IMG/VR virus record: IMGVR_UViG_3300035520_001860
Span: 1-64,000 of that record
DNA length: 64,000 bases
Source of the DNA: a virus
Lineage: Duplodnaviria; Caudoviricetes
Direction: 5' to 3' (one strand)
Position 1 is the stretch's first letter; each line of letters begins with the position of its first letter. Shown here one piece after another: positions 1 through 64,000 of the stretch. Made by a program: the position numbers and the translations under genes. The notes under the pieces are model-generated. The model was not told the DNA's origin and did not search any database. It was given only the letters and a program-made list of their open reading frames with translations.

Positions 1-639
1 ATGGCACGATACATTATAGGTTTAACACTTGTAGGTATTATACCAATGATACTTGTAACAGTATTTTCAATGATAGACAAAGAGGTAAGTGAGAGAATCA
101 AGCCTCATAAAGTAGATTACTTGATAATATTGTTATCAGCAATAGCCTATATAGTAATAACAACTATTAAAAAACAAACGGACATATATGAATATATAAA
201 TATGTCTGTATTGATTGGATATTTGGTCTTTATGAGTTATACAGACCAAAAGATGAAAATGTTGTACAACATAGCATCTATATGGATGATACTATTTGAA
301 ACAGGTTGGCTAGCATATAGTTATTTTATAACAAAAACAGTTAACTTAACAAAATATGATTTGATAGCAATACCAATTTTGATAGCACTTGTGATTTTAT
401 CAAAATTAGACTTCATAGGATTTGGAGATGTACTGATATATTTTGTGTTTGCAATATATGAAACAATATATTCTTATATACCTTTCTGGTACATACTGTG
501 GAGTTTATTGATATCAAACATAATGTTTGTAATAGCAACAAGTGTAATAAAATTGATAACACATAATAAAGAGAAGAAGCAACCATATACAATTTATATA
601 GCAATATCTATTTTCATAGTAAACATATTCTTAGTATAA
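1..639 (+). CDS. Prepilin peptidase (A24 family), possibly 5'-truncated by the window edge
   Basis: Multi-TM protein with the two catalytic Asp motifs YTDQK and IGFGDV, and a C-terminal QPYTIYI resembling the A24 'PF.P.I' segment. Confidence 0.75.
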   Translation: MARYIIGLTLVGIIPMILVTVFSMIDKEVSERIKPHKVDYLIILLSAIAYIVITTIKKQTDIYEYINMSVLIGYLVFMSYTDQKMKMLYNIASIWMILFETGWLAYSYFITKTVNLTKYDLIAIPILIALVILSKLDFIGFGDVLIYFVFAIYETIYSYIPFWYILWSLLISNIMFVIATSVIKLITHNKEKKQPYTIYIAISIFIVNIFLV

Positions 640-648
640 ACATAGCAG

Positions 649-684
649 ATACCCATCTCAGTAAAACAGAGGTGGGTATTTTTA
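649..684 (+). terminator. Rho-independent terminator
   Basis: Stem ATACCCATCTC / GAGGTGGGTAT (one G-U pair) followed by a T-run, directly after the stop codon. Confidence 0.8.
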
Positions 685-1466
685 TATACATTTCATACAT
701 AAAAATATACAAAAATAGATAAAAACAAACAACTATGTATAAATTATAAACAGGCTATATTTATAGTGGTGCAATAAAATTAGCATTTATATTATTTTAG
801 ATAAATTTTAAATTTAATTTTAATATAAAGTAAAACAGTCAGATTTAGATTAAATACATATGAGTTAAATTTAATAGGAAAAATTCATAGTATCCAGAAT
901 TTACAATAATAGAGCAATCTATAAAAACGAATAAGCGAATATAATGATTTCATATACGAAATACAGCTAAATTTAGCATAGTAACCTTAGTGTATGGAGC
1001 AGACTATAAATTTTATTAAACAGTATGAAATTTAATATAAGAGGCAACTGAATTTTAACTGTATGAGCACAGAAAAGTAAATCATTAAGCATCATAAGTT
1101 TAAACAAAAGAGAATTTACTAAAAGTAAACTAGTGAGAAAACCCGAAACAACATAAAATTGTAAACAGCTAAGCAAATATATAAGTTTAGATAAGCAATA
1201 TAGATAACCACAATTAATCATACAATTAAAAGACTTGTAGCAGTCCAACAGCATTAAGAATTAAAAAATAAATGTGCAACTGACAATAAATCATTGCAAC
1301 CAATGTACAATACATGTATAAGTAGACATATGAAATTCAAAACAATAAACAACTATGATAAATCAAGATGCAAATATGAAAATTGTGGTATATACAATAT
1401 AGTAAACAAATCAAAACACGAACAAATAGGAACAGCAGATAGGGTTTAGAAGCTAAACAATATGAA

Positions 1467-1570
1467 TTAAAAGAATAAACAATAAGATTTAAAAGAATAA
1501 ACAATAAGGAGGATAACATATGACATAAGAAAATAGTAAATTAACATTACAAATTAAAAGAACAAACAGT
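1467..1570. repeat. 22-bp tandem direct repeat (2 copies) plus a degenerate third copy
   Basis: TTAAAAGAATAAACAATAAG at 1467 and 1489; TTAAAAGAACAAACAGT at 1554. Confidence 0.7.
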
Positions 1571-1650
1571 GCATAAAGAACTAAAACAGCAAGAGAAAAT
1601 TAAAAAGACATATCAATAATAAAAAAATAAATGAAATTTATAAAAAATAG

Positions 1651-1679
1651 TTGACAAATGGTCGGATTTAGGTTAAAAT
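1651..1679 (+). promoter_or_regulatory. SigA/sigma70 promoter of the HTH operon
   Basis: TTGACA-17 bp-TAAAAT, with an A-rich UP-element-like tract upstream. Confidence 0.85.
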
Positions 1680-1776
1680 GTAGGTAGGTTGAGAATAATT
1701 AAATTCAGAAAAACTGCTAAAGGTACATTATCTAAATTCGGAAAGCATTATAGTAAGAAAAGGAGTGCAATACAGG

Positions 1777-2007
1777 ATGATGAAACAGAAAATTAAAGCA
1801 GTTTTGGAGAAGTATGGTCACACACAGAATGATTTGGCTGAAATCTTAGGAATTACTTATCAGTCAGTATCAATCAAACTTAACGGTCATAAGGATTTTA
1901 CACAGTCTGAAATTTTTAAAATCATGGTGTGTTATAATCTAACGCCAGAAGAAGTGGTAGATATCTTCTTCAATATGAATGACAGAATAAAGGGCGACGA
2001 GGACTAG
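1777..2007 (+). CDS. Small XRE/Cro-family HTH regulator
   Basis: TQNDLAEILGITYQSVSIKLNG...FTQSEI pattern. AGGAG at 1761 favours ATG at 1777 or 1780 over the GTG at 1765. Confidence 0.85.
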   Translation: MMKQKIKAVLEKYGHTQNDLAEILGITYQSVSIKLNGHKDFTQSEIFKIMVCYNLTPEEVVDIFFNMNDRIKGDED

Positions 2008-2023
2008 AGAGAAGGATAACACT

Positions 2024-2602: not shown

Positions 2603-2603
2603 A

Positions 2604-3865: not shown

Positions 3866-3872
3866 AAATATA

Positions 3873-10870: not shown

Positions 10871-10871
10871 G

Positions 10872-18694: not shown

Positions 18695-20119
18695 ATGGCA
18701 GACGAAGTAGGAAAGAGCTGGTACACGAAATATAGACCAGTTACATTAGCTGAATACTCAGGAGATAGAATAAAAGAAATAGTAGATAAACGTTTTAAAA
18801 AAAGAGATAGCATGCCACATGTTGTAGGTTTATTTGGAAGCAGGGGGTGTGGCAAGACAACTCTAGCAAGAATCATTTCAAAATATTATTTATGTCTAAA
18901 TCCACATGAAGATGGCACTCCATGTGAGGAATGTGAAGCATGTAAGGAAGTAAATGAAGTGCTAATTGCAGGCAATAGTACAGAAGTAGAATGTACTGGA
19001 GTTACAGAATTAGATGCTACAATCATGCGAGGAGTTAATGAAGTAGAGGCAGTATTAGAAGATGCTATACAGGCACCAATATACAGTCAGTATAAAATAC
19101 TAATCATAGATGAAGTTCATATGCTTAGTAATTCTGCACAGAACAGTCTACTTAAAACAATAGAGGAGCCACCTAGTCACTTAATCATTATATTTTGTAC
19201 AACTAACCCTGAGAAAGTGTTACAGACAGTTAAATCTCGTATACAGCTTACTATTGAAGTAAGAAAGCAATCAGTCCAAGACATGACAAATCGTCTAATG
19301 CAGATATCAGAAATGGAGAAACTTACTGTAAATAAAGCTGCTCTTGAGATATTGGCACGAAAGGGAAACAGAGTACCAAGAGAGTGTATTAACTTACTTG
19401 AAGGAGTTGCAAAGACATATGATGGTCAGATAACCATGGATAATGTAAAGGATTATCTTGGAGGTGTATCGAGTGATCTTTATATGGAATACTTTCAAGC
19501 AGCTAATAAATCATTAGCAGACATTCTAGTATTTATTAAGAAACTAAGAGATAACGACGTTAAGTTAAATGAGTTCGTCTCTGGTTTAATGCAGTTTGTG
19601 TTAGATAGTATGTATATAAAACATGGAATATCATTGGAAGATTATCCATTAGACTATATAAAGTCAGTAAAAGAATTGTTTGATATGTATACTAGCAATG
19701 ATTTTGATATGCTATTACAGATAATTGAATACTTATCAAATCAATTAACACAAGAAGACAATGCAAAAAATGAAGTATTACTTACAACAACTGCTATGAG
19801 AATTAGCAAAGTTAATTTGTTAGCAAATGGTTTAGCTAATGAACAGAATCAGGCAATTGCAGAGAATAAAATTTCACTTTATGAGCATAGTAAACAATTA
19901 AAGGTAGATAATGAGTCAGTTGCAGAACAGATGAAAACAGATATTACTCCAGCAGAGATAAAAGATTCATTTGGTGATATTAGACAGGTAGTGAATACAG
20001 CAGGTTTATTAGATAATATACAATTACCAGAGCTAGAACAGCCAGTGACATCTGAAGCAGACGAAAGAAATGAAATTTTACACCTTGGAAATGCTGTTGA
20101 TAGCTTTTTTGATAATTAA
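18695..20119 (+). CDS. dnaX: DNA polymerase III gamma/tau clamp-loader subunit
   Basis: KYRP, Walker A GSRGCGKTT, zinc motif C...CEECEAC, Walker B IIDEVHML, LLKTIEEPP, and SR sensor. Confidence 0.92.
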   Translation: MADEVGKSWYTKYRPVTLAEYSGDRIKEIVDKRFKKRDSMPHVVGLFGSRGCGKTTLARIISKYYLCLNPHEDGTPCEECEACKEVNEVLIAGNSTEVECTGVTELDATIMRGVNEVEAVLEDAIQAPIYSQYKILIIDEVHMLSNSAQNSLLKTIEEPPSHLIIIFCTTNPEKVLQTVKSRIQLTIEVRKQSVQDMTNRLMQISEMEKLTVNKAALEILARKGNRVPRECINLLEGVAKTYDGQITMDNVKDYLGGVSSDLYMEYFQAANKSLADILVFIKKLRDNDVKLNEFVSGLMQFVLDSMYIKHGISLEDYPLDYIKSVKELFDMYTSNDFDMLLQIIEYLSNQLTQEDNAKNEVLLTTTAMRISKVNLLANGLANEQNQAIAENKISLYEHSKQLKVDNESVAEQMKTDITPAEIKDSFGDIRQVVNTAGLLDNIQLPELEQPVTSEADERNEILHLGNAVDSFFDN

Positions 20120-21563: not shown

Positions 21564-21968
21564 ATGAATGGAATCAGCATACAGGAAAGATATGATGACA
21601 TATCAGAAATATCAGGTTTATCTGAAGATATAATTAGGCGAGTACTAAAAGCATCCAGACAAAGTATGGTAAAGTCACTTAAAAAAGGTGAAAGAGCAAC
21701 ACTACCTGGTATAGTAACTGTGACTCCAGAACTGAAACACAGATATAAGATAGGTTTAGAGACAGAATTAGAAGAGTACATTAAACTTAAAGCAAGTCCT
21801 TCACCAGCATTAGGTACTGAGATGGAAAAATTAAATCAGTTTGTTAATCCAGAAGATGAAAGTACTAGACTAGCAAAAGAAGAGGCTAACATGAGTAGAT
21901 TGAATATAGGTGGAAGATATAACAACCAGAATAGAATCATAACAACTCAGATAAATGCACTCTTGTAA
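21564..21968 (+). CDS. HU/IHF-family DNA-binding protein (divergent)
   Basis: ISEISGLSEDIIRRVL...SLKKGERATLPGIVTV resembles the HU consensus IA..SGLSK...LKKGE.V.L.GFG.F. Confidence 0.7.
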   Translation: MNGISIQERYDDISEISGLSEDIIRRVLKASRQSMVKSLKKGERATLPGIVTVTPELKHRYKIGLETELEEYIKLKASPSPALGTEMEKLNQFVNPEDESTRLAKEEANMSRLNIGGRYNNQNRIITTQINALL

Positions 21969-23461: not shown

Positions 23462-23488
23462 AAAAAGAACCAGGACAGGTGATACATC

Positions 23489-49112: not shown

Positions 49113-50867
49113 ATGGCAGTACTAAACATAATTAAAAAGGACCTAATACCTAAGTATTATGTGTGTGAATTAAGCAAAGATAAGAGTGTAATTGTACATG
49201 AGAATTTGCTAGATAGTAACTTTACTAAAGTAAGAATGGACAAGAGAACTATAGATTTAACAGAAAGTAAGTTTGGTAATTGGCATGTGCATTATTATCT
49301 TGGGGATAGGAAGTGGTTATGTGAGTGTTCATGTGGTAGGCTATGTGCAGTTATTGGATATAATCTAAGTTCTGGTAGATCAACATCATGTGGGCATGAA
49401 AACTATGATGATTTAACAGGTAAGCGGTTCGGAGATTGGCAGGTACTAGAATATGCAGGAACTGAGCATGGAATGACTAGATGGTTATGTGAGTGTTCAT
49501 GCGGAAATAAAAAAGAGGTATATGCAAAAGTACTTACAAATGGGAGGAGTAAGTCATGTGGACATAGTACTAATGCTTTTAATGACCTTACTGGAAAGCA
49601 ATTTGGAGAATGGAGTGTTTTAGAGTATGAGGGGGACCACTATTATAAGTGTCAATGCTCCTGTGGCAAAATAAAAAGCGTAGCTGGGTATTCTTTAACA
49701 CGAGGAGATAGCTTATCTTGTGGGCATAAATCAGCAGCCTGTAGAAAAGATACAATGATGCAGAGATACGGAGACACAGTTCCTGGAAAAAATAGAGAGC
49801 AATGGCAAATAGATATATTATCATCAAAGGAGATATTGGAAGCTTACATAATACACAAAGGGTATAAGCCAACAGCAGAAGAGTTAGCTAAGGAACTTGG
49901 TATAAATAAAACTAATATGTATAGAAATATACATAAGTATGGTATAGAGAACCTTATACTCATAGACTATAATTCATCTAAATATGAAAGAGAGATTGTA
50001 GAATTACTGAATAGTTGGGGAATATGCAACATTGAGGTTAGAGATAAAAAACATGTACCTGGTTTCGAACTAGATATATACATCCCAGACAAAAAACTAG
50101 CAATAGAGTTTAATGGTAGTTATTGGCACTCAGATTTATATAAAGATAAATACTATCATCAAGAAAAAACAATCGAATGTGCAAAACGACACATACAATT
50201 AATTCACATATTTGAATATGAATGGAATGATAACGATACTAAAGAAAAATTAATTAATCTACTGTATACAAGACTAGTTAACACAAAAAATTATATAGGA
50301 GCAAGGGAAACAGTAGTAACATTTATAGATAGTAGTATAGCAAAAGAATTTTGCAATAAATATCATTTGCATGGGTATAGTAATTCAAGTATAAATATAG
50401 GATGCTATTATAAATCAGATTTAATAGGGGTTTTAACATTTGGAAAACCAAGATTTAACAGTAATTATCAATACGAATTAATAAGACTGTGCTGGAAAGA
50501 TGATATAAAGGTACACGGCGGATTAGAAAAAATGTTTACATTATTTATAAAAAGTTACAATGTAAATAATATTATCAGTTATTGTGATATATCAAAGTTT
50601 AATGGAAATGCATATTTGAGACTTGGTTTTACAGTGCAAAATATAAGTGAGCCAAACTATATATGGTATAATTTAAGTAAAAAAACTAAACTAACAAGAT
50701 ATAAAACTCAGAAACATAAATTAGTAGAGGCAGGATTTGGCGATGCAAACAGTACAGAGTCAGATATAATGGAAGACCTAGACTATGTAAAAATACATGA
50801 TAGTGGAAACTTAGTTTTAGAATGGAGAAATCAAAATGGCAGTCAAAGTACCAACAATATGGAATGA
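49113..50867 (+). CDS. Zn-repeat / HTH / PD-(D/E)XK nuclease / Mom-like GNAT protein, paralog 3 (3 repeats)
   Basis: Three repeats; HTH ELAKELGINKTNM; ELDIYIPDKKLAIEFNGSYWHS; GNAT-like C-terminus. Confidence 0.82.
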   Translation: MAVLNIIKKDLIPKYYVCELSKDKSVIVHENLLDSNFTKVRMDKRTIDLTESKFGNWHVHYYLGDRKWLCECSCGRLCAVIGYNLSSGRSTSCGHENYDDLTGKRFGDWQVLEYAGTEHGMTRWLCECSCGNKKEVYAKVLTNGRSKSCGHSTNAFNDLTGKQFGEWSVLEYEGDHYYKCQCSCGKIKSVAGYSLTRGDSLSCGHKSAACRKDTMMQRYGDTVPGKNREQWQIDILSSKEILEAYIIHKGYKPTAEELAKELGINKTNMYRNIHKYGIENLILIDYNSSKYEREIVELLNSWGICNIEVRDKKHVPGFELDIYIPDKKLAIEFNGSYWHSDLYKDKYYHQEKTIECAKRHIQLIHIFEYEWNDNDTKEKLINLLYTRLVNTKNYIGARETVVTFIDSSIAKEFCNKYHLHGYSNSSINIGCYYKSDLIGVLTFGKPRFNSNYQYELIRLCWKDDIKVHGGLEKMFTLFIKSYNVNNIISYCDISKFNGNAYLRLGFTVQNISEPNYIWYNLSKKTKLTRYKTQKHKLVEAGFGDANSTESDIMEDLDYVKIHDSGNLVLEWRNQNGSQSTNNME

Positions 50868-52467
50868 TATGTATATAGGAAATATGAGTGAACCACAAGC
50901 AGAACTAATAATGCAGACAAGACAATCCAATGTTATTCCAAATTTAAAGAAAATGCTATTTAATTTTCCTTATGAGCTCATACAACAGAGTATAGAAGAA
51001 CAACAAAGTATAAGAAATATAATTAAAAGAGATAATATAGACTATACACAATACATATCAGAATTAAGAGATTACCAAACAGTGGGGACTGCATTCATGT
51101 ATTTATCACCAAGAAGCATAATCGCCGATGGGTGTGGGCTTGGGAAAACTGCTGAGGTCAGCGCTCTTATCAACTGGTTACTTTATAAAGGTGAAATGAC
51201 AAGATTTCTTATGGCTGTTGAAAATAGTGCTGTTGGTCAAACACAGGCTGAAATTATGAGATTTACTGGACTTTATGTCGTTGCATTACCATCAGAGGCA
51301 GCAAAGCTAAAGAAAGTAATAGAGCACACTGATTGGACAAAAGTTGACGGTATTGTAATTAAGCACAGTACATTAAGAAGTGATGCATTCAGTAAATGGT
51401 TAGCACTGAATATCAATTCTGAAGGGCTATGTAATTTATTTGACACTTTCTTTCTTGATGAATCATCAGTAATAAAGAATGATACAACAAAAATGTATCA
51501 GTATACAAAGAACATATGTCAAATAGTCAAGAGAGTTCATCTTATGAACGCTACTACTTTTGAAACTAGCATTGTTGATATTTATAATCAAATTGATATG
51601 ATGGACCAAACACTGTTACCAAAGAAGTGGAGAATAGAAAAAGAGTTCTGTACATTTACACGTACACAGTACTGGACAAAAGAAAATGGCAAAGCTAAAT
51701 TAAACTGGAGGCATGAACGATCTGGATATAAGAATCAAGCAATATTTAAGGAATCATTGAAACTCGTTTATTTTGGCAGATGTAAAGCAGACATTGGCAT
51801 GGATTTACCACATGTTTACAAAGTGTTTGAAGTAGAGCCAACAAATGCTATGAGTGTTGGGTTATCCAAAGGGTATAGATACAGTGAATTACTTAATTGT
51901 CCAAGTCTAATTCCAGAAGCAAACATACCAATGGATAGAAAGAATGTTCCAAAACTTGATAGGTTATGTGACCTTGTAGAGAATGACTTTTCAGATTCAA
52001 GTATAATGATATATTGTTTTCACATAGAGGCACAGAGAGTAATAGCAGATGAACTTGCAAAGATTGGTAGGAAACCAGTAATACTTAATGGAAGTATCAC
52101 AGATTCAAATGAGAGATACAAGATTCAACAAGATTTTAACAATGGGATTTATGATGTAATCATAACAAACATTAAGAAATCATTAAACTTATATGGTGGG
52201 GATGTTTGTATATTTTATAGCATGGAAACAAATCCTAGTAAGTCTTTTCAAATAGCATCTCGTATAGATAGAAATGTCTCTGATGATATAAAAACATTCG
52301 TTATGTTATTGTATAAAGGCACTGATGAGTATAAGTTCTTTACTACAACAGTTAAGCAGCGAGCAAAAGATGCTAGGGATCTTACAATTGATGCTAAAAC
52401 AACAGTAGATTTCTTCTTTGAATCAATGATGGCAGAGGAAACAGCCGAACTAAATGGTAAAGCCTAA
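50836..52467 (+). CDS. SNF2-family helicase/translocase
   Basis: LRDYQ, IIADGCGLGKT, LDES, SLNL, Q..SRIDR motifs. Confidence 0.85.
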   Translation: MAVKVPTIWNDMYIGNMSEPQAELIMQTRQSNVIPNLKKMLFNFPYELIQQSIEEQQSIRNIIKRDNIDYTQYISELRDYQTVGTAFMYLSPRSIIADGCGLGKTAEVSALINWLLYKGEMTRFLMAVENSAVGQTQAEIMRFTGLYVVALPSEAAKLKKVIEHTDWTKVDGIVIKHSTLRSDAFSKWLALNINSEGLCNLFDTFFLDESSVIKNDTTKMYQYTKNICQIVKRVHLMNATTFETSIVDIYNQIDMMDQTLLPKKWRIEKEFCTFTRTQYWTKENGKAKLNWRHERSGYKNQAIFKESLKLVYFGRCKADIGMDLPHVYKVFEVEPTNAMSVGLSKGYRYSELLNCPSLIPEANIPMDRKNVPKLDRLCDLVENDFSDSSIMIYCFHIEAQRVIADELAKIGRKPVILNGSITDSNERYKIQQDFNNGIYDVIITNIKKSLNLYGGDVCIFYSMETNPSKSFQIASRIDRNVSDDIKTFVMLLYKGTDEYKFFTTTVKQRAKDARDLTIDAKTTVDFFFESMMAEETAELNGKA

Positions 52468-56093: not shown

Positions 56094-56500
56094 GTGTAAA
56101 ATAACCTATTAGTATAGCAGTAGTGTACTATTAAAAAACAATTTACAGTGTTCCTACAATTTTTAAAAATTATAATCATAAATAATAGATTAGTGGTTAA
56201 TAAAAATTAAAAATTTAACAACAAAATACTATTTTACAGCGTCAAACAATTAATATATGTAGCATTTGGTAAAAATTGAGTAAGCACCAAAGGTTAAAAT
56301 TTTGGGTTGATTTTTGAAAAAATTTCTGTGTAGGTTAATTTGAAAAGATTATGAGATAATATACTATTACAAGACTGTAGTACAAAACATATTAGCAATT
56401 TTACTATTTTAAATACCAATTACAAATAAATATAACCTAAATAAATACAGTTTTATATGATAGGTAGTTTTAATTTTTACATTTTATTATGGAGAATACT

Positions 56501-59425
56501 ATGAGTAAGATTGATATTAAGACTTTAAAATTGACAGATGACCAAAAAGAAGTTTATAATGAAGCTATGATTTCACTTGCAAATCATAATCAGGCTGCTA
56601 TACATTTAGTGACAAGTGGTGGTAAGTCATATATCTTAGCAGCTATTCTTGATACTCTTAAGAAGCAGAAGAAGAAAAGACGTAAGAATCTAAGTGTATT
56701 ATACATATCTACTGCTGGGTCATGTACTAACTTTTTAGAGTGTATGTCAGATGAGTATTGGGATGATGTACTGTCAGTCATTAACTATACTCAGCTAAGT
56801 GTCGATGAGAAATATGTGGATAAACTTAATAAAAAGGATTTTGACATCATAGTTCTTGACGAAGCACATCTTGCTCTTGCAGAAAAAACATACAAAGGTG
56901 TATTATATACAGAGAGTAAATATCCAGATGCAGCTATAATTGCAATGTCTGCAAACAACAGAAGATATACAGGCAGAAAGCTTGTATTTGAAATACTGAC
57001 ACCTGAACTTGAAGTTGGTGTAGACTACAATAATAGAGGGTTGAAGTATGCAATAGCAAATGATAAAATATGCAAGTTTAATTACAAGTGCTGTGATATT
57101 AAAAGACTTAAAACATATTGTGATGTGTTTGAACAACTAAGACAAAGAGGATTGATTTATGTAGATGCAGATGATATACTGAATAAAGCAAGAGATATAG
57201 TAGACAGATATAAGAAGAATGCATTTAATAAATTAGGAGTACAGATAAGACAAGATTTGTCAGATATTGGTATTGATGGAAGCAAAGGGGATAGATGGTT
57301 TATCTTCTTTAATACAATAGCTGAACTTGAGGAATCAGCAAGTGCTGTGCAAGATATGTTTGAAACAGCATATAATAGTCAAAATATCACTGTAAAATGT
57401 CATCATTATCATGGCAAAAACAGAGATGTAGAGGATATCGAAAAGATTTTAACAGGTAAATCAACTCCTTATACAGTTGATGTTATAATGACATGTGAAA
57501 AGGGTGGAATGAGCTTTCATCCAGAGAATACACGTGGAATTATTATGAACAGAAAAAGTGGTTCAGAAGTTAAAATCACTCAGCAGTTGGGTAGAACACT
57601 TCAGATTAAAGAGTTATGTTCAGATTGTAAATTGATTTATGACCTTGTTGGAAATAATGAAACAATTGATATAACTCAAACAATCTTTAATGGAAAGCAG
57701 CAGCCTGATGAAAGAGATATTATATCTTGGCTTAATATGAGTACTAACACAGATAAAATGATGGAGTCGCTTGAGAAAGAATATGGTGACACAGGAGAGT
57801 ATTCAACAATTCAAGATGTAGAACTAGAAGACATTCTATCACAATTTGATGAATATAAAGAAAAAGTTGAAAACATACTTTATGCAAAAATCATAGCAAA
57901 CTTATTTGATGTGTATAAGAGTGAACATGATGGAGTTATGAGTGAGCATCCATTAGCTATACTTCGATCTTATGATAAGAGGGCTGAACTCGATAAGAAA
58001 TATGGATTAGCAGATGCATTTTCTGCTTTACAGAAGTTGTTTATTCAAGGCTACTTTGGAAATTATACCATGGATGCAGTACCAGAAGGTAGCGATTTCT
58101 ATAAGATTTATAGTTTACTTGGTGACACATTGTATATGACATCAAAGTGTAATGCTGATGCAACATGGGAGGATAAAGAATACGAAGAAACAGCTAATAT
58201 TAAACTTGTAGAGTTACAGGAGATAGCACTTAAAGTTAAGGGTTATGACTATGACTATGCAAAGAGAATATCACATACAAAGGATTTAAACAATAAGATT
58301 ACAAGACTAAGACAGCTTAATCTTGAAGGTAGACTATCTGAATCTTATCAGAAATACTGCATGAGAAACAAGATAGATATAGATGGAACTTATGTAAACT
58401 TGATAAATGCAGTATTAAGTCTGCCAGAAGCAGATAAGTTTGAAAAGATTACCAAAGAATTTAAAGCCATTGTTTCAAAGATGACAAACATTGAAACACA
58501 GATAGCATGTGGCATAAAAGTAGATGAAATGAGAGATGACTTATTAAAAGTATTTGCAATGCATCAGATATTTAGTATCAGATACAGAAGGCATACTTAT
58601 GGTAATCAGGCTATTATTGCAATAAACGTTAGATTTAGAAATATAATCATTTTAAGAAATAAAATGCTATCTCGTGATGATGTACTAACAGCACAGAAAG
58701 ATATAATGACAATAGTAAGAATAAGAATGTGCAAAGGGGATGCATCACTTAGCAGTAGAATAAATAAGGATTACGAGTTAGCAATGATGCAGTTGTCCAT
58801 TAGAAATGAGAATGGAGCAATTGGAGAATATGAATCGGTCGTACTAGATACATTAGGTATGAGATTTAGAGGTAAGTATGACAGCAAGATTAGAGACTTA
58901 ATAGATCATACTCCATTTGGTATTGCATATAATCAACTGTTAGAAAGCGGTTCTGAAACAGCTTATAACAAGCTTATGGAATACAAAATTGAGAACATGC
59001 CATTGTATTGTAGAAAACTACTTAATACGAAAAAATTCAAGCAGTCAACTGATGAAGTAAAGAGTAACAAATTACTTGTAAAAGACAGTAAGGAGATTAA
59101 ACAGCTTGTGTCAAATTTAGTATTTCCATCTGAACAAGATATAAATGACCTTAAACATAAAGTCGAAACAGAAGAATTTGATCCAAGAAATTTGATTAAG
59201 TATGCAATACCAGAGAAAGTTTATTTAAGTAACAAGAAGTTTCTTGATAGAGCAATTACTGAACAGTGGGGCAGTATAGAGAATAATGTACAGAATATTA
59301 TTCTCTCTATCATTAAGAAAAATACAATGTGTACTGGAGATATTGTAGAATGTCTGTATACTAATAAACTTATACCAGAGATTCAGATGGAATTTGCAGA
59401 CAATGTTATTAAAGTTACACAGTAA
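56501..59425 (+). CDS. Superfamily 2 helicase (ResIII/DEAH-like) with a long helical C-terminal region
   Basis: LTDDQ, TSGGKS, LDEAH, MSAN, QQLGRTL; GGAG RBS favours ATG 56501. Confidence 0.78.
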   Translation: MSKIDIKTLKLTDDQKEVYNEAMISLANHNQAAIHLVTSGGKSYILAAILDTLKKQKKKRRKNLSVLYISTAGSCTNFLECMSDEYWDDVLSVINYTQLSVDEKYVDKLNKKDFDIIVLDEAHLALAEKTYKGVLYTESKYPDAAIIAMSANNRRYTGRKLVFEILTPELEVGVDYNNRGLKYAIANDKICKFNYKCCDIKRLKTYCDVFEQLRQRGLIYVDADDILNKARDIVDRYKKNAFNKLGVQIRQDLSDIGIDGSKGDRWFIFFNTIAELEESASAVQDMFETAYNSQNITVKCHHYHGKNRDVEDIEKILTGKSTPYTVDVIMTCEKGGMSFHPENTRGIIMNRKSGSEVKITQQLGRTLQIKELCSDCKLIYDLVGNNETIDITQTIFNGKQQPDERDIISWLNMSTNTDKMMESLEKEYGDTGEYSTIQDVELEDILSQFDEYKEKVENILYAKIIANLFDVYKSEHDGVMSEHPLAILRSYDKRAELDKKYGLADAFSALQKLFIQGYFGNYTMDAVPEGSDFYKIYSLLGDTLYMTSKCNADATWEDKEYEETANIKLVELQEIALKVKGYDYDYAKRISHTKDLNNKITRLRQLNLEGRLSESYQKYCMRNKIDIDGTYVNLINAVLSLPEADKFEKITKEFKAIVSKMTNIETQIACGIKVDEMRDDLLKVFAMHQIFSIRYRRHTYGNQAIIAINVRFRNIIILRNKMLSRDDVLTAQKDIMTIVRIRMCKGDASLSSRINKDYELAMMQLSIRNENGAIGEYESVVLDTLGMRFRGKYDSKIRDLIDHTPFGIAYNQLLESGSETAYNKLMEYKIENMPLYCRKLLNTKKFKQSTDEVKSNKLLVKDSKEIKQLVSNLVFPSEQDINDLKHKVETEEFDPRNLIKYAIPEKVYLSNKKFLDRAITEQWGSIENNVQNIILSIIKKNTMCTGDIVECLYTNKLIPEIQMEFADNVIKVTQ

Positions 59426-59649: not shown

Positions 59650-61659
59650 ATGGCTAATCAAGTACAAACTGACAATCGTAACATGAAACGATTGAAAGAC
59701 GAACAACAGGTTAGACAAAGACCAGCGCCTATATTCGGAACCAATGATGAAAAAGGTGCATTTCATTCAGTAGATGAGGTTATAGCAAACTCTATTGATG
59801 AGGCACGCGAGGGATATGGTAAGGAAATTGATATTACTGTTGAAGAAGGAAATGTAGTCACAGTAGAAGATAGTGGACGTGGACTTCCAATGGATTGGAA
59901 CGAAGCAGAGAAGATGTACAACTGGGAGTTAGCACTTTGTACATTGTATGCATCAGGTAAATATGATGCATCTCAGTATGGACAGTCACTTGGACTTAAT
60001 GGACTTGGACTTACAGCAACACAGTATGCATCAGACTTCATGGAAGTATGGTCAACATATGGTGGTAAGACAAGATACATGCAGTTCTCAAAAGGAAAAC
60101 CAGTAGGTCAGATGAAAATAATGAACCCAGTTAGAGAGGGAACAGGTACAAAGATTCGATTCAGACCAGACCCAGAAGTATTCCCAGCATTGAGATATAA
60201 TAAACTTACACCTGATATGTTTGTTGATATGCTTAATAGTCAAGCAATGCTTTTAGATGGACTTGCAATTAACTTTAAACATTGTGACTTGACAAACACA
60301 ATTGTGTTTAAGTACGATGGTGGAATGGCAGAGTATGTAGATAGAGTAGTTGAAGACAAGAAAATATTACCAGAGGCTGCATACTTCTTTGATAGTGAAA
60401 CAGGAACAGATGACCCAGAACATGATGCTATGAATGACATTCCAAACTATAAGGTTGATATGCGATTAGCATTTAACTTCTGTAGAGATAGAAGCGTTGT
60501 AAGAGTATATCATAACGGTTCAAACATGTTCGAGGGTGGAGTTACAGTAGATGGATTACAAAGAGGTATTGTTGGTGCTTTCTCTGATGTAGCAAAGGCT
60601 ACTGGTAAGATAAGTAAATCAGACAGATTTTCATACAAAGACATTGAGAGCATGCTAATCTGTGTAGCTAGTACAGATGCACCAGGTAATAGAACATGGT
60701 TTAAAAACCAGACAAAAGGAGCAATCAATAACCCATTCATTGGTAAGGCATTTGCACAGTTTGTATATAACAAAATACGTTACTGGTTAGAACAGAATAC
60801 AGCTTTAGCTACAAAAGTAATTGCAGAAGCAGTTATCAATAAAAAAGCTCGTGAGGAAGCTGCAGAAGTATCTAAGAAAGTCGTTCGTTCTTTAAGTAAA
60901 TCAGTTAACTTTTCAAACAAGCCAAAAGATTTTAGAGATTGTTCTAGTAAGAATATCTTTGAAAGAGAGCTATATATCGTAGAAGGACGTTCCGCACTCG
61001 GTAGTGTAAAACTAGCATGTAATCCAAAATTTCAGGCTGTAATGCCTGTTAGGGGCAAGCCTATCAACTGTCTAAAGGAAAACATAACAAGAGTACTCAA
61101 TAACGATATTATTATTGACTTATACAGAGTATTTGGTTGTGGAATGGAAGTTAAGCATAAGAACTTGGAGGATTTACCAAAGTTTGATATTACAAAACTC
61201 AACTGGGGAAAATTAATCATATGTACTGATGCCGATGTTGATGGAAACCATATCAGATGTTTGTTAATTACAATGTTCTATATTCTTAGTCCTAGTCTGC
61301 TAAAGGCTGGTAAAGTTTATATTGCAGAAACTCCATTGTATGAGATGACATACAAGAAAGAAACAAAATTTGCATTTGATGATAATGAGAAAGAGCAAGT
61401 GCTTGCTTACTTCAAAAACATGGGAGCAAAGGATGGACAGGTAAAGATTCAGCGTTCTAAGGGATTAGGTGAGAACGATCCTGAGATGATGAGTTTATCA
61501 ACAATGAATCCTGAGACAAGACGACTCATTAGAGTTGAATATCCTGAGAATGACTCTGATTTAAGAACATACTTCAATGCATTACTTGGAGATGACCTTG
61601 AAGCAAGACGAGCATTAATTGATGAGTATTTTGATTTAGTTGATGGAAACTTAGACTAA
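59650..61659 (+). CDS. gyrB: Type IIA topoisomerase subunit B (GyrB/ParE)
   Basis: VRQRP, EVIANSIDE, DSGRGLP, GLNGLG, VEGRSA, PVRGK, DADVDG, RSKGLGE. Confidence 0.92.
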   Translation: MANQVQTDNRNMKRLKDEQQVRQRPAPIFGTNDEKGAFHSVDEVIANSIDEAREGYGKEIDITVEEGNVVTVEDSGRGLPMDWNEAEKMYNWELALCTLYASGKYDASQYGQSLGLNGLGLTATQYASDFMEVWSTYGGKTRYMQFSKGKPVGQMKIMNPVREGTGTKIRFRPDPEVFPALRYNKLTPDMFVDMLNSQAMLLDGLAINFKHCDLTNTIVFKYDGGMAEYVDRVVEDKKILPEAAYFFDSETGTDDPEHDAMNDIPNYKVDMRLAFNFCRDRSVVRVYHNGSNMFEGGVTVDGLQRGIVGAFSDVAKATGKISKSDRFSYKDIESMLICVASTDAPGNRTWFKNQTKGAINNPFIGKAFAQFVYNKIRYWLEQNTALATKVIAEAVINKKAREEAAEVSKKVVRSLSKSVNFSNKPKDFRDCSSKNIFERELYIVEGRSALGSVKLACNPKFQAVMPVRGKPINCLKENITRVLNNDIIIDLYRVFGCGMEVKHKNLEDLPKFDITKLNWGKLIICTDADVDGNHIRCLLITMFYILSPSLLKAGKVYIAETPLYEMTYKKETKFAFDDNEKEQVLAYFKNMGAKDGQVKIQRSKGLGENDPEMMSLSTMNPETRRLIRVEYPENDSDLRTYFNALLGDDLEARRALIDEYFDLVDGNLD

Positions 61660-61680
61660 TAATCAAATATAAATGAGATT

Positions 61681-61721
61681 AAAAATAGGAGCATATATTA
61701 AAAATATGTTCCTATTTTTTT
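61681..61721 (+). terminator. Rho-independent terminator
   Basis: AAAAATAGGAGCATAT / ATATGTTCCTATTTTT. Confidence 0.82.
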
Positions 61722-61781
61722 ACATTGTTAATAATATTATTATAAAATCAATTTTTTAAAATTTAGAAACAGGAGATTAAA

Positions 61782-63374
61782 ATGCAACCGACTTTTCAAG
61801 ATTTGACTGGACAAAAATTTGGTGAAATGACAGTAGTTGGATATAACAGGGATGTAAGAAGATGGATTTGTGTTTGTGATAAAGGGCACTATTGTTACAA
61901 GCAAACAACACACTTGAAAACAAGACATAATATATGTAAACAGTGTAAAGCACAAAAAGATGCTTCATTAGTTGGAAGTAAAATAGGAGAATTGACAGTA
62001 CTAAAACAGGTATCAAGCCAAGAATATTTATGTCAATGTTCATGTGGAAAGACATGTATAAAACAAAAAGGACACTTAGTAGGTGGATATGTAAAATCAT
62101 GTGGACATTTGAACAAAAATAAATTTGAGAATTTAAGAGGTCAAAGATTTGGAAAACTTGTAGCAGAAGAGTATGTATCAAAAGAGGCAGGTTGGAAATG
62201 CAAGTGTGATTGCGGTAATATAGTAAATGCTCTACCAGCTAATCTAAAAAACGGAAGTACAGCTTCATGTGGATGTAGTAATCCATATAAATTAATAGAT
62301 ATAACAAACAAGAGATTTGGAAAATTAGTAGCAGTAAGACACATATACAGAGGATTGTGGGAGTGCCAGTGTGATTGCGGTAACATATGCGAAAAACAAT
62401 CATATGATTTAAGAAATAACAGAGTTATATCATGTGGATGTGAGTCTAGCGAATCATATAAAGAGTTTCAGTTATATGAATATATAAGGTCAATATACAA
62501 CGGAGAAATTATAAAGCATAACAAAACAATATTAAAAGGTAAAGAGATAGATATATACATACCAGAAAAACATATTGCAATAGAGTTCAACGGTAACTAT
62601 TGGCATTCTTTAAAAGAAAAAAGATATCATCAAGATAAAACAATAGACTGCGTAAAACAGAAGATAAGACTGATTCATATTTTTGAGTATGAATGGGATA
62701 ACGATATTATACAAGAAAAATTAAAAATATACTTAAAGACAATATTAAATGAAAGTGAAGCTAAAGTAATATATGCAAGAAACACAAATGTACACGAGAT
62801 AAATCAGGATATAGCACAAGAATTTTTAAATAAGTATCATTTACAAGGATATGCATCATCTACAATTAACATAGGATGTTATTATAATGAACAACTGATT
62901 GGAATGATGACATTTGGTAAACCAAGATTTAACAACTCCTACGAATATGAAATAGTAAGACTATGTTGGTTGCCTACAATACATGTAGTTGGGGGCTTGG
63001 AAAAATTATTTAGCTATTTCCTTACAAAATATAATCCACAATCTATTATAACCTATGTAGACATTTCCAAGTTTACAGGTAATTCATATTTAAGAATAGG
63101 GTTTAAGTTGATACTACCAGACCCTATAACTAAGCCAAACTATGTATGGGTATCACACCATGGCAACACAGTAAAAAAACGGTATCAAACACAAAAAGCA
63201 GACCTTGTTAAAAATGGACTTGGAACAGAAGACCAAACCGAAGATGAGATTATGGAATCATTAGGTTATTATAAAATATATGATTGTGGTAATATCAAAC
63301 TAGAGTGGGTTAAGGAGGATAACAATAAATGGGAAATCACGACTATATACAAAAGGGAAATAACGGTGGTATAG
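61782..63374 (+). CDS. Zn-repeat / PD-(D/E)XK nuclease / Mom-like GNAT protein, paralog 4 (4 repeats, no HTH)
   Basis: Four repeats; EIDIYIPEKHIAIEFNGNYWHS; GNAT-like C-terminus. Confidence 0.82.
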   Translation: MQPTFQDLTGQKFGEMTVVGYNRDVRRWICVCDKGHYCYKQTTHLKTRHNICKQCKAQKDASLVGSKIGELTVLKQVSSQEYLCQCSCGKTCIKQKGHLVGGYVKSCGHLNKNKFENLRGQRFGKLVAEEYVSKEAGWKCKCDCGNIVNALPANLKNGSTASCGCSNPYKLIDITNKRFGKLVAVRHIYRGLWECQCDCGNICEKQSYDLRNNRVISCGCESSESYKEFQLYEYIRSIYNGEIIKHNKTILKGKEIDIYIPEKHIAIEFNGNYWHSLKEKRYHQDKTIDCVKQKIRLIHIFEYEWDNDIIQEKLKIYLKTILNESEAKVIYARNTNVHEINQDIAQEFLNKYHLQGYASSTINIGCYYNEQLIGMMTFGKPRFNNSYEYEIVRLCWLPTIHVVGGLEKLFSYFLTKYNPQSIITYVDISKFTGNSYLRIGFKLILPDPITKPNYVWVSHHGNTVKKRYQTQKADLVKNGLGTEDQTEDEIMESLGYYKIYDCGNIKLEWVKEDNNKWEITTIYKREITVV

Positions 63375-64000
63375 TGATAGACTGCAGAAGTGTTCCCGAT
63401 AAAGGATTTTTGAATGCAAACAAAACTAAGATAATAGCAAAAGCAAAGATAATGACAAAGGAAGAAAAAGCTAATTCACAGGATTTTGTTCCTGGTGGAC
63501 CAGATGTTATTCTAAAATACTCAACTGGAGAAACTAAACTAATTTCACGTAAGGAATTAGCAGCTAATTTTGTGCACTCCAGTGGAAATAAAATAATAAT
63601 ACCATTTTTAAAATCAAATACACAATACTTTGTATATGGTACATGCAATGAAAAATACAAGGTAATGAAATTACCAGAAAATTGCATAGCAATATTACCT
63701 AATGGTACAAGGTCAAAACCTGGATGCTACATAGTAGCTAAGGAAGGTGCAAATGGTCAAATAGATAAGAGTACAATAACATCAATGCCAAAACAAATGT
63801 TTAAGAAGTCATTTAAGGTTCCTATGCAACCAGCTATACAAAAACACATGCATGGTGCTTCAAAATCTAGCAAATCATTCAAACTCTTTAATAGAAACAA
63901 TGCACCTAAAATGAATATGCGTGCTTCAATGAAATCAAATATAGATACATCAGAAATTGGAATGAATCCAGCAAATATTCATGTAAGTTCTATAAATGAT
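63329..64000 (+). CDS. Hypothetical protein, 3'-truncated by the window (absent from the ORF track)
   Basis: AAGGAGG RBS at 63312 and ATG 63329; MGNHDYIQKGNNGGIVIDCRSVPDKGF... stays open to the window end. Confidence 0.75.
   Translation, partial: MGNHDYIQKGNNGGIVIDCRSVPDKGFLNANKTKIIAKAKIMTKEEKANSQDFVPGGPDVILKYSTGETKLISRKELAANFVHSSGNKIIIPFLKSNTQYFVYGTCNEKYKVMKLPENCIAILPNGTRSKPGCYIVAKEGANGQIDKSTITSMPKQMFKKSFKVPMQPAIQKHMHGASKSSKSFKLFNRNNAPKMNMRASMKSNIDTSEIGMNPANIHVSSIND

What the first reader, a model, noticed from the sequence alone, without database searches (positions are those of the whole stretch)
1..64000. Apparently uncharacterised giant replicon with chromosome-like replication genes
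Seen: 64 kb on one coding strand, mostly orphan ORFs, with stand-alone divergent dnaX (no recR/ybaB neighbours), gyrB (no dnaA-dnaN-recF context), a DnaC-like ATPase, two helicases, HU and a conjugation-like cluster. Inference: a megaplasmid or other giant extrachromosomal element that supplies part of its own replisome.
Basis: inference. Interest (0 to 1): 0.7.

Follow-up and report, generated by a model that had tools for sequence, protein, structure and literature searches.

The report
Gut relative of giant plasmid pXO16
This stretch is part of a very large plasmid-like DNA element of uncultured gut bacteria, filed in a virus database but gene-for-gene related to pXO16, the puzzling 350-kb conjugative plasmid of Bacillus thuringiensis, which shows that this supposedly unique plasmid type is a widespread family.

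Summary
The window is the first 64 kb of a 133.6-kb IMG/VR "provirus" record: 31% GC, 114 of 125 ORFs on one strand, constant positive GC skew, mostly orphan genes. It carries a DnaX-like clamp-loader ATPase, a type IIA topoisomerase B subunit, two helicases and a DNA-transfer cluster. No DnaC-like ATPase was found, and the HU call is weak.

It is a distant relative of pXO16 (349.6 kb, circular, same one-strand layout). Seventeen genes lie in the same order in both, including the two ATPases of pXO16's "tip" transfer locus. The 732-aa ATPase is a true VirB4 by profile and by fold.

No capsid, portal, terminase, integrase or relaxase family was detected in this record, three relatives (88-268 kb) or pXO16. 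The virus/provirus label is therefore unsupported. Relaxase-less transfer matches what is reported for pXO16.

Unlike pXO16, this branch has 15-27 tRNAs, tmRNA plus SmpB, IF3 and many homing-endonuclease-like genes. It lacks pXO16's one-strand GGGGTA word. Relatives occur on contigs of up to about 500-600 kb from human gut, animal gut and digesters.

This scan reached the same pXO16 link earlier on at least 8 other genomes. No paper in the held library links pXO16 to metagenomic relatives.

The parts
1765..2007 (+). Cro/C1-type HTH regulator. It follows a 1.1-kb AT-rich non-coding stretch (640-1764) that holds 22-nt direct repeats at 1447-1568.
   Evidence: Pfam DUF739 1.8e-9 and HTH_3 5e-7. 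Repeats. Conserved in G001 (73% identity) and G002 (49%).
18695..20119 (+). DnaX-like clamp-loader AAA+ ATPase. It is the first gene of the backbone shared with pXO16.
   Evidence: Pfam DNA_pol3_delta2 4.7e-31. PDB pol III gamma/tau 8e-30 over residues 12-270. Orthologue in pXO16 at rc 119722-121017, profile E 5e-65.
20345..21184 (+). 279-aa membrane protein (3 predicted TM helices). Positional counterpart of a 254-aa pXO16 protein.
   Evidence: TM scan. Profile hit to px121058, E 5e-4, at the expected position.
21564..21968 (+). HU-like small DNA-binding protein (weak assignment).
   Evidence: Pfam HU-HIG 7.6e-5 and Bac_DNA_binding 1.3e-3, both below the curated cut-offs. Conserved in G001 and G002.
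21986..22597 (+). YdjM-type membrane-bound metal-dependent hydrolase. Counterpart of pXO16's 'metal-dependent hydrolase' and of TcpI of pCW3.
   Evidence: Pfam YdjM 2e-14. pXO16 orthologue E 2e-10. hhalign to TcpI: probability 92%, E 7e-7.
22631..23998 (+). Two small polytopic membrane proteins (276 and 169 aa) of the transfer locus.
   Evidence: TM scan. pXO16 orthologues px123589 (1.6e-12) and px124587 (6e-5), in the same order.
24061..27054 (+). 997-aa protein with an N-terminal signal/TM segment and two C-terminal TM helices. Probable surface or channel component.
   Evidence: TM scan. No Pfam or PHROG hit. Conserved in G001 and G002.
27076..32148 (+). 1690-aa polytopic membrane giant. Orthologue of the 1834-aa pXO16 protein and a candidate for the VirB6-like channel role (inferred).
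   Evidence: At least 7 TM segments. pXO16 px125805-131309, E 3e-40. Atlas leads only: TrbL, CtnDOT_TraJ and TraG_N clusters at 0.77-0.82.
32223..33515 (+). 430-aa protein with two N-terminal TM helices, conserved across the family and in pXO16.
   Evidence: 52-68% identity to G001/G002. pXO16 px135004, E 3e-11. Atlas lead: 'TraC-like' cluster of Bacillota at 0.86.
33534..36350 (+). 938-aa protein with a C-terminal ParA/MinD/CpaE-type ATPase domain.
   Evidence: Pfam AAA_31 4e-8, CBP_BcsQ 5e-7 and CbiA 1e-6 at residues 675-857. phrog_164 ParA-like.
36375..37817 (+). 480-aa soluble, helix-rich protein of unknown role inside the transfer locus.
   Evidence: No significant family hit. Conserved in G001 (64% identity) and G002 (36%).
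37828..40026 (+). VirB4-family ATPase, the most conserved protein of the element family. Orthologue of the pXO16 tip-locus ATPase.
   Evidence: pXO16: 31% identity over 91% of the protein, E 1e-81; profile E 2e-106. Deep profile to PDB 4AG5 VirB4, 7.4e-22. AF2 pLDDT 89.6. Foldseek top hits are full-length TrwK/VirB4, E 1e-16.
40399..42753 (+). FtsK/SpoIIIE-type ATPase with TM helices ahead of the motor domain. Probable coupling protein / DNA pump.
   Evidence: Pfam FtsK_SpoIIIE 6e-15. PDB EccC/FtsK 1e-8. TM segments at 181-240. pXO16 orthologue E 8e-48.
42785..44767 (+). Homing-endonuclease-like protein with a Mom-like domain. Paralogues lie at 49113-50867, 61782-63374 and, outside the window, 74503-76395. 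All are inserted beside backbone genes.
   Evidence: Pfam Mom 1e-5 to 7e-4. The paralogue at 74503-76395 hits phrog_3339 (homing endonuclease) 8e-87 and phrog_559 (HNH) 1e-74.
50836..52467 (+). SNF2-family helicase, a backbone gene.
   Evidence: Pfam Helicase_C and SNF2-rel_dom. pXO16 orthologue ('DEAD/DEAH box helicase') E 2e-80.
56489..59425 (+). 978-aa ResIII/DEAD-type helicase.
   Evidence: Pfam ResIII 1.7e-8. 57% identity to its G001 counterpart.
59650..61659 (+). Its partner A subunit is at 70606-72858, outside the window.
   Evidence: Four GyrB Pfam domains. 41-44% identity to one Clostridia paralogue and 31-34% to origin-proximal GyrB. Forms its own clade in the tree. The A subunit lacks a GyrA box. 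pXO16 orthologue E 9e-91.

Best explanation
The window belongs to a giant plasmid-like extrachromosomal element of uncultured anaerobic Bacillota. This record holds at least 133.6 kb, its closest relative at least 268 kb, and related contigs reach about 500-600 kb. The host is probably Clostridia/Lachnospiraceae. The element is a distant member of the pXO16 type.

Shown: it shares with pXO16 a colinear backbone. In order, this comprises:
- a DnaX-like clamp-loader ATPase;
- a membrane-protein block with a YdjM/TcpI-like hydrolase and a giant polytopic protein;
- a VirB4 ATPase and an FtsK-type ATPase;
- an SNF2 helicase;
- type IIA topoisomerase B and A subunits;
- a DnaB helicase and a ParB-like protein.
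Nearly all genes lie on one strand, and GC skew has one sign throughout.

Inferred mechanism:
- The 20-43 kb block builds a Gram-positive-type, relaxase-less (or cryptic-relaxase) type IV secretion-like DNA-transfer machine. VirB4 would energise assembly and the membrane-anchored FtsK-type motor would feed DNA into a channel formed by the polytopic proteins.
- The element replicates in one direction using the host polymerase. It supplies its own helicase, a clamp-loader-like ATPase and a decatenating topoisomerase.
- It segregates with ParA/ParB-like proteins.

Outside the window it also carries tRNAs, tmRNA plus SmpB, and IF3. These probably support translation of its AT-rich genes.
For: Homology to pXO16:
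- The VirB4-like protein hits the ~350-kb B. thuringiensis plasmid over its full length (31% identity, E 1e-81). The FtsK-like protein hits the gene a few kb downstream.
- The annotated pXO16 locus has the same gene order.
- Profiles of G000+G001+G002 orthologues find 17 colinear pXO16 orthologues, spanning G000 18.7-85.5 kb and pXO16 119.7-225.1 kb (blastp).
- pXO16 has the same layout: 423 of 446 ORFs on one strand and skew of +0.16 to +0.24 in every 25-kb bin of the closed circle.

VirB4 identity:
- Profile to PDB 4AG5, 7.4e-22.
- AF2 pLDDT 89.6 and Foldseek E 1e-16 to full-length TrwK/VirB4.

Other support:
- The block is rich in membrane proteins.
- YdjM matches TcpI of pCW3.
- Literature: pXO16 is conjugative; its 25-kb tip locus has two ATPases and a hydrolase; relaxase and oriT are unidentified; all CDS share one orientation (PMC9673590 section 16; PMC6199540 section 30).
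- No capsid, portal, terminase, integrase or relaxase families were found in G000-G003 or pXO16.
- Only one of about 185,000 species genomes holds the VirB4 gene, on short MAG contigs.
Against: - No complete or circular member of this gut branch could be inspected. G000, G001 and G002 have no terminal repeats and are probably fragments. The 400-500 kb metagenome contigs could not be fetched or searched.
- IMG/VR (geNomad/CheckV) files all four records as viral.
- tRNA arrays, tmRNA/SmpB, IF3, homing endonucleases and Mom-like domains are typical of huge phages.
- The PHROG screen of G001 0-42 kb and 174-210 kb was saturated by HNH families, so single structural hits there could have been hidden.
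- Apart from TcpI and the ATPase cores, profile comparison with the pCW3 Tcp proteins was negative.
- The NlpC/P60 wall hydrolase lies about 60 kb away from the transfer block.
- Transfer itself has never been observed for this branch.
Confidence: 0.8

Rival explanations
1. It is a huge phage, or a phage-plasmid, whose virion and packaging genes are too divergent to recognise or lie on the missing part of the genome. The VirB4/FtsK block would then serve DNA packaging, injection or superinfection functions.
For: - IMG/VR files G000-G003 as viral, with CheckV completeness of 39-100%.
- Phage-like features include tRNA arrays plus tmRNA/SmpB and IF3, many free-standing homing-endonuclease-like genes, Mom-like domains, ThyX, and strong PHROG hits for topoisomerase II and a Clp-like protease.
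- An earlier follow-up on the same record called it a large gut phage.
- A phage-like nature has been suggested for pXO16 itself (PMC6199540 section 30).
- The screen of part of G001 was saturated.
Against: - Six-frame searches found no Phage_capsid, Gp23, Phage_portal, TerL_ATPase or Terminase_6C in 739 kb of four records, or in the complete pXO16 circle. The Terminase_6N search covered the four records but not pXO16, and gave only a weak Walker-A match inside the FtsK-type gene in three of the four (G000, G001, G003).
- Direct PHROG scans of 30 large proteins gave no structural hit.
- Regions outside the shared backbone are not conserved between G001 and G002, so no conserved virion module exists in what is sequenced.
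- The central ATPase folds as a full-length VirB4, not a terminase.
- pXO16 transfers by cell contact, and no plaques have been obtained (PMC6199540, PMC9673590).
Confidence: 0.12
2. It is an integrated element (an ICE or provirus) inside a bacterial chromosome, as the IMG/VR 'provirus' flag implies. The 450-600 kb contigs would then be host chromosome that carries it.
For: - G000, G002 and G003 are classed 'provirus'.
- Homologues sit on contigs of 400-600 kb whose content I could not inspect.
- The element carries cellular-looking genes such as SmpB, IF3, a topoisomerase and tRNAs.
Against: - No tyrosine integrase is present in any of the four records or in pXO16.
- G001 continues 42 kb upstream and 95 kb downstream of G000 with the same one-strand, low-GC, orphan-rich content and no chromosomal genes.
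- There are no rRNA or other Rfam hits in the window.
- Only 1 of about 185,000 species genomes has the VirB4 gene, on contigs of 3 and 12.5 kb.
- The relative pXO16 is a free circular plasmid.
- Serine recombinases were not tested.
Confidence: 0.05
3. It is a piece of the chromosome of a very reduced or unusual bacterium.
For: It holds housekeeping-type genes: DnaX-like, DnaB, a type IIA topoisomerase, SmpB, IF3, tRNAs and tmRNA.
Against: - About 60% of window ORFs are orphans.
- No ribosomal RNA, Pol III alpha or canonical gene contexts were found.
- The topoisomerase clade lies outside cellular orthologues.
- A 17-gene synteny links it to a plasmid.
Confidence: 0.02

Closest known systems
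[quoted passage not shown]
   Same: - 17 colinear orthologues, including both tip-locus ATPases, the YdjM-like hydrolase, the giant polytopic protein, SNF2, topoisomerase B and A, DnaB and ParB.
- Nearly all genes on one strand, one-sign GC skew and GC of about 31-33%.
- Mostly orphan genes.
- No recognisable relaxase (PMC9673590).
   Different: - Protein identity is only 20-32%.
- This branch has 15-27 tRNAs, tmRNA plus SmpB and IF3, whereas pXO16 has no tRNA.
- It has many homing-endonuclease-like / Mom-like paralogues.
- pXO16's one-strand GGGGTA word (658 versus 5) is not enriched here.
- The hosts are uncultured gut or digester anaerobes rather than Bacillus.
- Aggregation genes and transfer are untested.
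Tcp conjugation system of Clostridium perfringens pCW3 and related Gram-positive (FtsK-coupling-protein) type IV secretion systems
   Same: - A VirB4-family ATPase plus a membrane-anchored FtsK/SpoIIIE-type coupling ATPase.
- A large polytopic membrane protein and small membrane proteins.
- A TcpI/YdjM-type hydrolase (hhalign 92%) and an NlpC/P60-type wall hydrolase on the element.
- According to PMC6199540, pXO16 transfer is distantly related to this system.
   Different: - No TcpM-like or other relaxase family was found.
- Profile comparison to TcpC, D, E, G and H was negative, and to TcpA, B and F it covered only the P-loop.
- The locus is several-fold larger and sits on a replicon 5-10 times bigger than pCW3.
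Inocles, giant (245-368 kb) plasmid-like elements of oral Streptococcus (PMC12340149)
   Same: Giant, low-GC (about 32%), plasmid-like elements of human-associated Bacillota that were missed by short-read binning. They carry VirB4 and tRNAs.
   Different: Inocles have an origin and a terminus with a GC-skew switch and a switch of ORF orientation, plus a VirD4-type coupling protein (PMC12340149). Here there is a single orientation, no skew switch and an FtsK-type motor.
Huge phages (Al-Shayeb et al. 2020, PMC7162821)
   Same: Size above 200 kb, tRNA arrays, tmRNA, translation factors, homing endonucleases, and classification as viral by automated tools.
   Different: No capsid, portal or terminase was detected. 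A VirB4/FtsK membrane machine and synteny with a conjugative plasmid are present instead.

Membership tests
pXO16-type giant conjugative plasmids | Colinear backbone of orthologous genes shared with pXO16 | tested here: met
   17 orthologues lie in the same order, with E from 5e-4 down to 2e-106; 11 of them are inside the window.
pXO16-type giant conjugative plasmids | Common orientation of nearly all CDS and one-sign GC skew | tested here: met
   + strand ORFs: G000 114/125, G001 276/286, G002 227/248, pXO16 423/446. Skew keeps the same sign in every bin, except for one IS-rich 10-kb bin of G001.
pXO16-type giant conjugative plasmids | tip-like locus with two ATPases (VirB4-like and FtsK-like) | tested here: met
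   The genes at 37828-40026 and 40399-42753 are orthologous to the pXO16 pair.
pXO16-type giant conjugative plasmids | Cell-wall hydrolase (TipB) within the transfer locus | tested here: inconclusive
   No hydrolase domain was found in the 20-48 kb block. An NlpC/P60 + SH3 + lysozyme-type protein lies at 102181-105222. Which pXO16 CDS is TipB could not be read from the held papers.
pXO16-type giant conjugative plasmids | Free circular replicon that transfers by cell contact | not testable with these tools
   G000-G002 are linear fragments without end repeats, and there is no cultured host.
pXO16-type giant conjugative plasmids | Dense one-strand GGGGTA word (noted earlier in this scan; not a published criterion) | tested here: not met
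   pXO16 has 658 on + versus 5 on -, z 42 against synonymous shuffles. G000 has 12 versus 0 with 22 expected. No comparable word appears in G000-G002.
Type IV secretion / conjugation system (Gram-positive type) | VirB4-family ATPase | tested here: met
   Profile A6 to 4AG5 VirB4, 7.4e-22, and to TrwK, 1.9e-4. Foldseek top 10 are all TrwK/VirB4, E 1e-16, with 630-680 aligned columns.
Type IV secretion / conjugation system (Gram-positive type) | Coupling protein (VirD4 or FtsK/TcpA type) | tested here: met
   FtsK_SpoIIIE domain 6e-15, with TM helices N-terminal of the motor.
Type IV secretion / conjugation system (Gram-positive type) | Relaxase and oriT | tested here: not met
   Rep_trans, Relaxase, Mob_Pre and MobA_MobL are absent from G000-G003. 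The last two were also tested on pXO16 and are absent there. TrwC and TcpM-like families were not tested. This is the same gap as reported for pXO16 (PMC9673590).
Type IV secretion / conjugation system (Gram-positive type) | VirB6-like polytopic channel protein | tested here: inconclusive
   The 1690-aa protein has at least 7 TM segments. hhalign to TcpH was negative. The Atlas gives only weak leads to TrbL/TraJ/TraG_N clusters at 0.77-0.82.
Tailed phages (Caudoviricetes) | HK97-fold major capsid protein, portal and large terminase | tested here: not met
   No hit for PF05065, PF07068, PF04860, PF03354 or PF17289. PF03237 gave only a Walker-A match in the FtsK gene. PHROG scans gave no structural hit. 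Limits: the records are fragments, one screen was saturated, and no fold-level screen was done.
DNA gyrase (GyrB/GyrA) | GyrA-box in the A subunit, and grouping with GyrB orthologues | tested here: not met
   The 750-aa A subunit has no GyrA-box motif. The B subunit is 31-34% identical to origin-proximal GyrB but 41-44% to the second Clostridia paralogue, and it forms its own clade sister to that paralogue.
Inocle elements | Two replichores with a switch of GC skew and ORF orientation | tested here: not met
   There is no switch over 133-268 kb here or over the closed pXO16 circle, whereas Inocles have one (PMC12340149).

The most novel reading that the evidence does not exclude
pXO16 is the only cultured representative of a large, old superfamily of giant (250-600 kb) elements of anaerobic gut and digester Bacillota that are coded on a single strand. 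These elements would move DNA with a relaxase-less VirB4/FtsK machine while also carrying the translation-support kit otherwise typical of huge phages (tRNA arrays, tmRNA-SmpB, IF3). That would be a lifestyle between plasmid and virus, which current classifiers mislabel as provirus.
Probability: 0.4. Interest if true: 0.75.

Novelty: new variant of a known kind. Interest (0 to 1): 0.6.

Why it matters
pXO16 has been treated as a one-off. It is described as 350 kb of 'terra incognita' restricted to one B. thuringiensis serovar, with a very fast transfer system whose relaxase and oriT have never been found (PMC9673590, PMC6199540).

- Distant relatives in human gut, animal gut and digester metagenomes give a comparative handle. 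The roughly 17 genes that stay colinear at 20-32% identity are the obvious candidates for the essential replication and transfer core, and for the missing DNA-processing enzyme.
- Virus catalogues contain giant plasmid-like elements labelled as proviruses, which distorts counts of 'huge phages' and of phage-encoded translation genes.
- Some of the largest mobile elements of the human gut may spread by conjugation rather than infection.

Tried and rejected
- Megablast of 25 kb of the window against the phage and plasmid collections gave no match.
- tblastn of the VirB4-like protein against phages gave one weak 5.9-kb hit.
- The first AF2 run, on a shallow 11-sequence alignment, failed with pLDDT 45. 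It succeeded only after a 98-sequence alignment was built from the representative search.
- A shallow profile against PDB gave nothing.
- hhalign of 12 locus proteins against the pCW3 Tcp proteins detected only TcpI and a P-loop match. An all-against-all hhalign run timed out.
- Alignment-mode PHROG scans list only 25 families. The A4 set was saturated by HNH families and is not a clean negative.
Metagenome records of 400-497 kb could not be searched or fetched, so size, circularity and gene content of the largest relatives remain unchecked.
- DnaA boxes are not enriched: 25 observed versus 26.9 expected. No origin was located.
- No pervasive Borg-like tandem repeats occur. There are only short in-gene repeats and a perfect 42-bp x4 repeat at the contig end.
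- A search for a polarised over-represented word found no equivalent of pXO16's GGGGTA. CTGGTG/TGGTGA reach z of about 7 in G000 but are not consistent in G001 or G002.
- Alternative genetic codes were considered and dropped, because ORFs are long and dense under table 11 and TAA is the commonest stop.
- Inocle was considered and rejected as the family because its replichore structure differs.

Full report
**What is there.**
The window is bases 1-64000 of a single-contig record of 133,586 bp, which IMG/VR classes as a 'provirus' with 59% CheckV completeness.
- In the window, 49 of 51 non-overlapping ORFs are on the + strand. In the whole record the figure is 114 of 125.
- GC is 29-34%, and GC skew is positive in every bin.
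- The window has no tRNA and no Rfam family.

Pfam finds the following:
- an HTH regulator (1765-2007);
- a GNAT acetyltransferase (10851-11444);
- a radical-SAM protein (18028-18642);
- a DnaX-like AAA+ ATPase (18695-20119; also PDB gamma/tau 8e-30);
- a weak HU-like protein (21564-21968);
- a YdjM hydrolase (21986-22597);
- a ParA/MinD-type domain at the end of a 938-aa protein (33534-36350);
- a DUF87/TraG-P-loop ATPase (37828-40026);
- an FtsK/SpoIIIE ATPase (40399-42753);
- three proteins with Mom-like domains;
- SNF2 and ResIII helicases;
- a four-domain GyrB-type protein (59650-61659).

About 30 ORFs have no hit. I found no DnaC-like ATPase: only three proteins in the window carry a classical Walker A motif.

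**The rest of the record.**
Beyond the window, the record encodes:
- the topoisomerase A subunit, DnaB and a ParB-HNH protein;
- a Clp-like protease, SmpB, IF3 and MscS;
- a 1013-aa secreted NlpC/P60 wall hydrolase (102181-105222);
- SIR2, GGDEF, three HipA_C proteins and ThyX;
- 15 tRNAs and a tmRNA.

The contig ends inside a perfect 42-bp x4 repeat, which is probably an assembly break.

**Relatives.**
The 732-aa ATPase has hundreds of metagenomic homologues at 60-94% identity, on contigs of up to 450-600 kb. The JGI/ENA scan found 50 loci on contigs of up to 496,540 bp, from human gut, animal gut and anaerobic digesters. IMG/VR holds four further records. I fetched two of them whole.
- G001 (268 kb, 31% GC, 276 of 286 ORFs on one strand) contains all of G000 in the same order, plus 42 kb upstream and 95 kb downstream.
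- G002 (250 kb, 38% GC, 227 of 248 ORFs on one strand) is colinear with G000 over its 103-246 kb.
- Outside that shared core, G001 and G002 have little in common.

Only one of about 185,000 species-representative genomes holds the gene. It is a Lachnospiraceae MAG from deer cecum, which carries two different variants on short contigs.

**Phage or plasmid?**
Six-frame searches of G000-G003 found no Phage_capsid, Phage_portal, Terminase_6C, TerL_ATPase or Gp23. Terminase_6N matched only the P-loop of the FtsK-type gene. Direct PHROG scans of 30 large proteins gave only replication-type hits. One alignment-mode scan was clean, and the other was saturated by HNH families, so it is not a full negative. 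No tyrosine integrase was found.

**The key result.**
tblastn of the ATPase against plasmids gave full-length hits (31% identity, 91% coverage, E 1e-81) in the ~350-kb plasmid of B. thuringiensis sv. israelensis. The FtsK-like protein hit the FtsK/SpoIIIE gene a few kb downstream. That plasmid, NC_018516.1, is pXO16 (PMC6199540).

Its annotated locus reads: AAA ATPase, small proteins, metal-dependent hydrolase, two mid-size proteins, an 1834-aa protein, several unknowns, the ATPase, FtsK/SpoIIIE, and a DEAD-box helicase. This is the same order as window 18.7-52.5 kb.

I fetched the whole plasmid. It is 33.4% GC, with 423 of 446 ORFs on one strand, skew of +0.16 to +0.24 in all 25-kb bins of the closed circle, and no tRNA. 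Profiles built from G000/G001/G002 orthologues find 17 pXO16 orthologues in strictly the same order, from the DnaX-like gene to a 329-aa protein at 84.5 kb.

**Is the ATPase a VirB4?**
- A search of 1.84 billion representatives found a narrow family of 306 clusters.
- A 98-sequence profile hits the VirB4 of Thermoanaerobacter (4AG5) at 7.4e-22 and TrwK at 1.9e-4.
- The AF2 model (pLDDT 89.6) matches full-length TrwK/VirB4 of the R388 system at Foldseek E 1e-16. HerA appears only from 1e-10.

So the cluster is a genuine, very divergent type IV secretion-like system with an FtsK-type motor. Around it lie seven membrane proteins, among them a 1690-aa polytopic protein orthologous to the 1834-aa pXO16 protein. 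The YdjM protein matches TcpI of pCW3. No relaxase family (Rep_trans, Relaxase, Mob_Pre, MobA_MobL) was found here or, for the last two, in pXO16. This agrees with the literature, where the relaxase and oriT of pXO16 remain unidentified (PMC9673590).

**Replication genes.**
- The B subunit is 41-44% identical to one Clostridia paralogue and 31-34% to the origin-proximal GyrB.
- In a quick ML tree, 12 element sequences form one clade (aLRT 99, long stem). That clade is sister to the first paralogue group and is not nested within it. pXO16 sits on a very long branch of uncertain place.
- The A subunit has no GyrA box.
- I therefore read the enzyme as a topo IV / phage topo II-type decatenase (inference).
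- No Pol III alpha was found, so the element appears to supply helper functions and borrow the host polymerase (inference).

**Differences from pXO16.**
- This branch has tRNA arrays, tmRNA-SmpB and IF3.
- It has many homing-endonuclease-like paralogues.
- pXO16's polarised GGGGTA word is absent. I confirmed the word in pXO16 (658 versus 5; z 42) but not in G000-G002.

**Literature and earlier scan notes.**
- pXO16 is described as conjugative, with all CDS in one orientation and a suspected but unproven phage-like nature. A survey of 1,168 B. cereus-group plasmids found only copies of itself (PMC6199540 section 30; PMC9673590).
- No held paper links pXO16 to metagenomes.
- Inocles differ in replichore structure.
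- After I had reached pXO16 independently, a look-up showed that this scan had made the same link on at least 8 other genomes.

**Verdict.**
The element is a new, translation-gene-rich gut variant of the pXO16 kind (confidence 0.8). An unrecognisably divergent huge phage remains the main rival (0.12).

Noticed in passing
G000 131450-131524 (outside the window); also 100117-100193 and 101290-101363: ARAGORN calls a tRNA with anticodon TTA (it would read the TAA stop) and two tRNA-like genes with 8-base anticodon loops (gcgc, tttc). TAA is nevertheless the commonest stop codon of the ORFs (33 of 51 in the window), so no recoding is evident.
   Followed up: partly
G000 101623-102037 and 93069-93542: The element encodes tmRNA (tag ADNSRPVAIAA) together with its partner SmpB. 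G001 and G002 have the same pair (G002 tag ARPVAVAA), and pXO16 has neither.
   Followed up: partly
window 42785-44767, 49113-50867, 61782-63374; G000 74503-76395 and 82530-84002: A family of large homing-endonuclease-like paralogues with a Mom-like domain sits next to backbone genes (FtsK, SNF2, topoisomerase B, DnaB, ParB). Their positions differ between G000, G001 and G002.
   Followed up: partly
window 9188-10870 and 44790-46235: Two extremely acidic proteins have no family hit: 37% Asp+Glu over 560 aa, and 27% over 481 aa.
   Followed up: no
window 40630-40779: Tandem 21- and 30-nt repeats encode a Gly/Ser/Asn/Phe-rich low-complexity stretch ahead of the TM helices of the FtsK-type ATPase.
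   Followed up: no
pXO16 (NC_018516.1, whole record) versus G000-G002: GGGGTA occurs 658 times on the coding strand of pXO16 and 5 times on the other (z 42 against synonymous-codon shuffles). It is not enriched in this gut branch, so the signal is not universal in the family.
   Followed up: yes
G001 30-41 kb (L034): This block holds four 490-545-aa proteins, two of which match transposase PHROGs at up to 2e-103. It is the only place where GC skew drops to about 0 and GC rises to 36%, so it is probably IS insertions.
   Followed up: partly
G004 (Lachnospiraceae MAG RGIG8543) contigs C205 and C400: One MAG carries two different element-type topoisomerase B genes (75% and 59% identical to the window's) besides its own GyrB (34%). 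Either fragments of two elements were binned together or two elements share one host.
   Followed up: partly
G000 63-109 kb (ORF not located): One ORF in this range matches the Pfam ATLF domain (anthrax lethal-factor N/C-type metalloprotease-like domain) at E 1.2e-6. Elsewhere on the record are three HipA_C kinases, a SIR2 protein and a GGDEF protein.
   Followed up: no
G000 133419-133586: The record ends in a perfect 42-bp x4 tandem repeat (coding-like, Gln/Asn/Met-rich). It is probably the cause of the assembly break rather than a genome end.
   Followed up: partly
plasmids NZ_CP076292.1 (B. velezensis, 215.7 kb), NZ_CP071971.1 and B. subtilis plasmids of 136-146 kb: These cultured Bacillus plasmids also carry the VirB4-like (24-26% identity) and FtsK-type genes a few kb apart. 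All are typed 'non-mobilizable' by MOB-suite. They may be further cultured members of the pXO16 kind.
   Followed up: no
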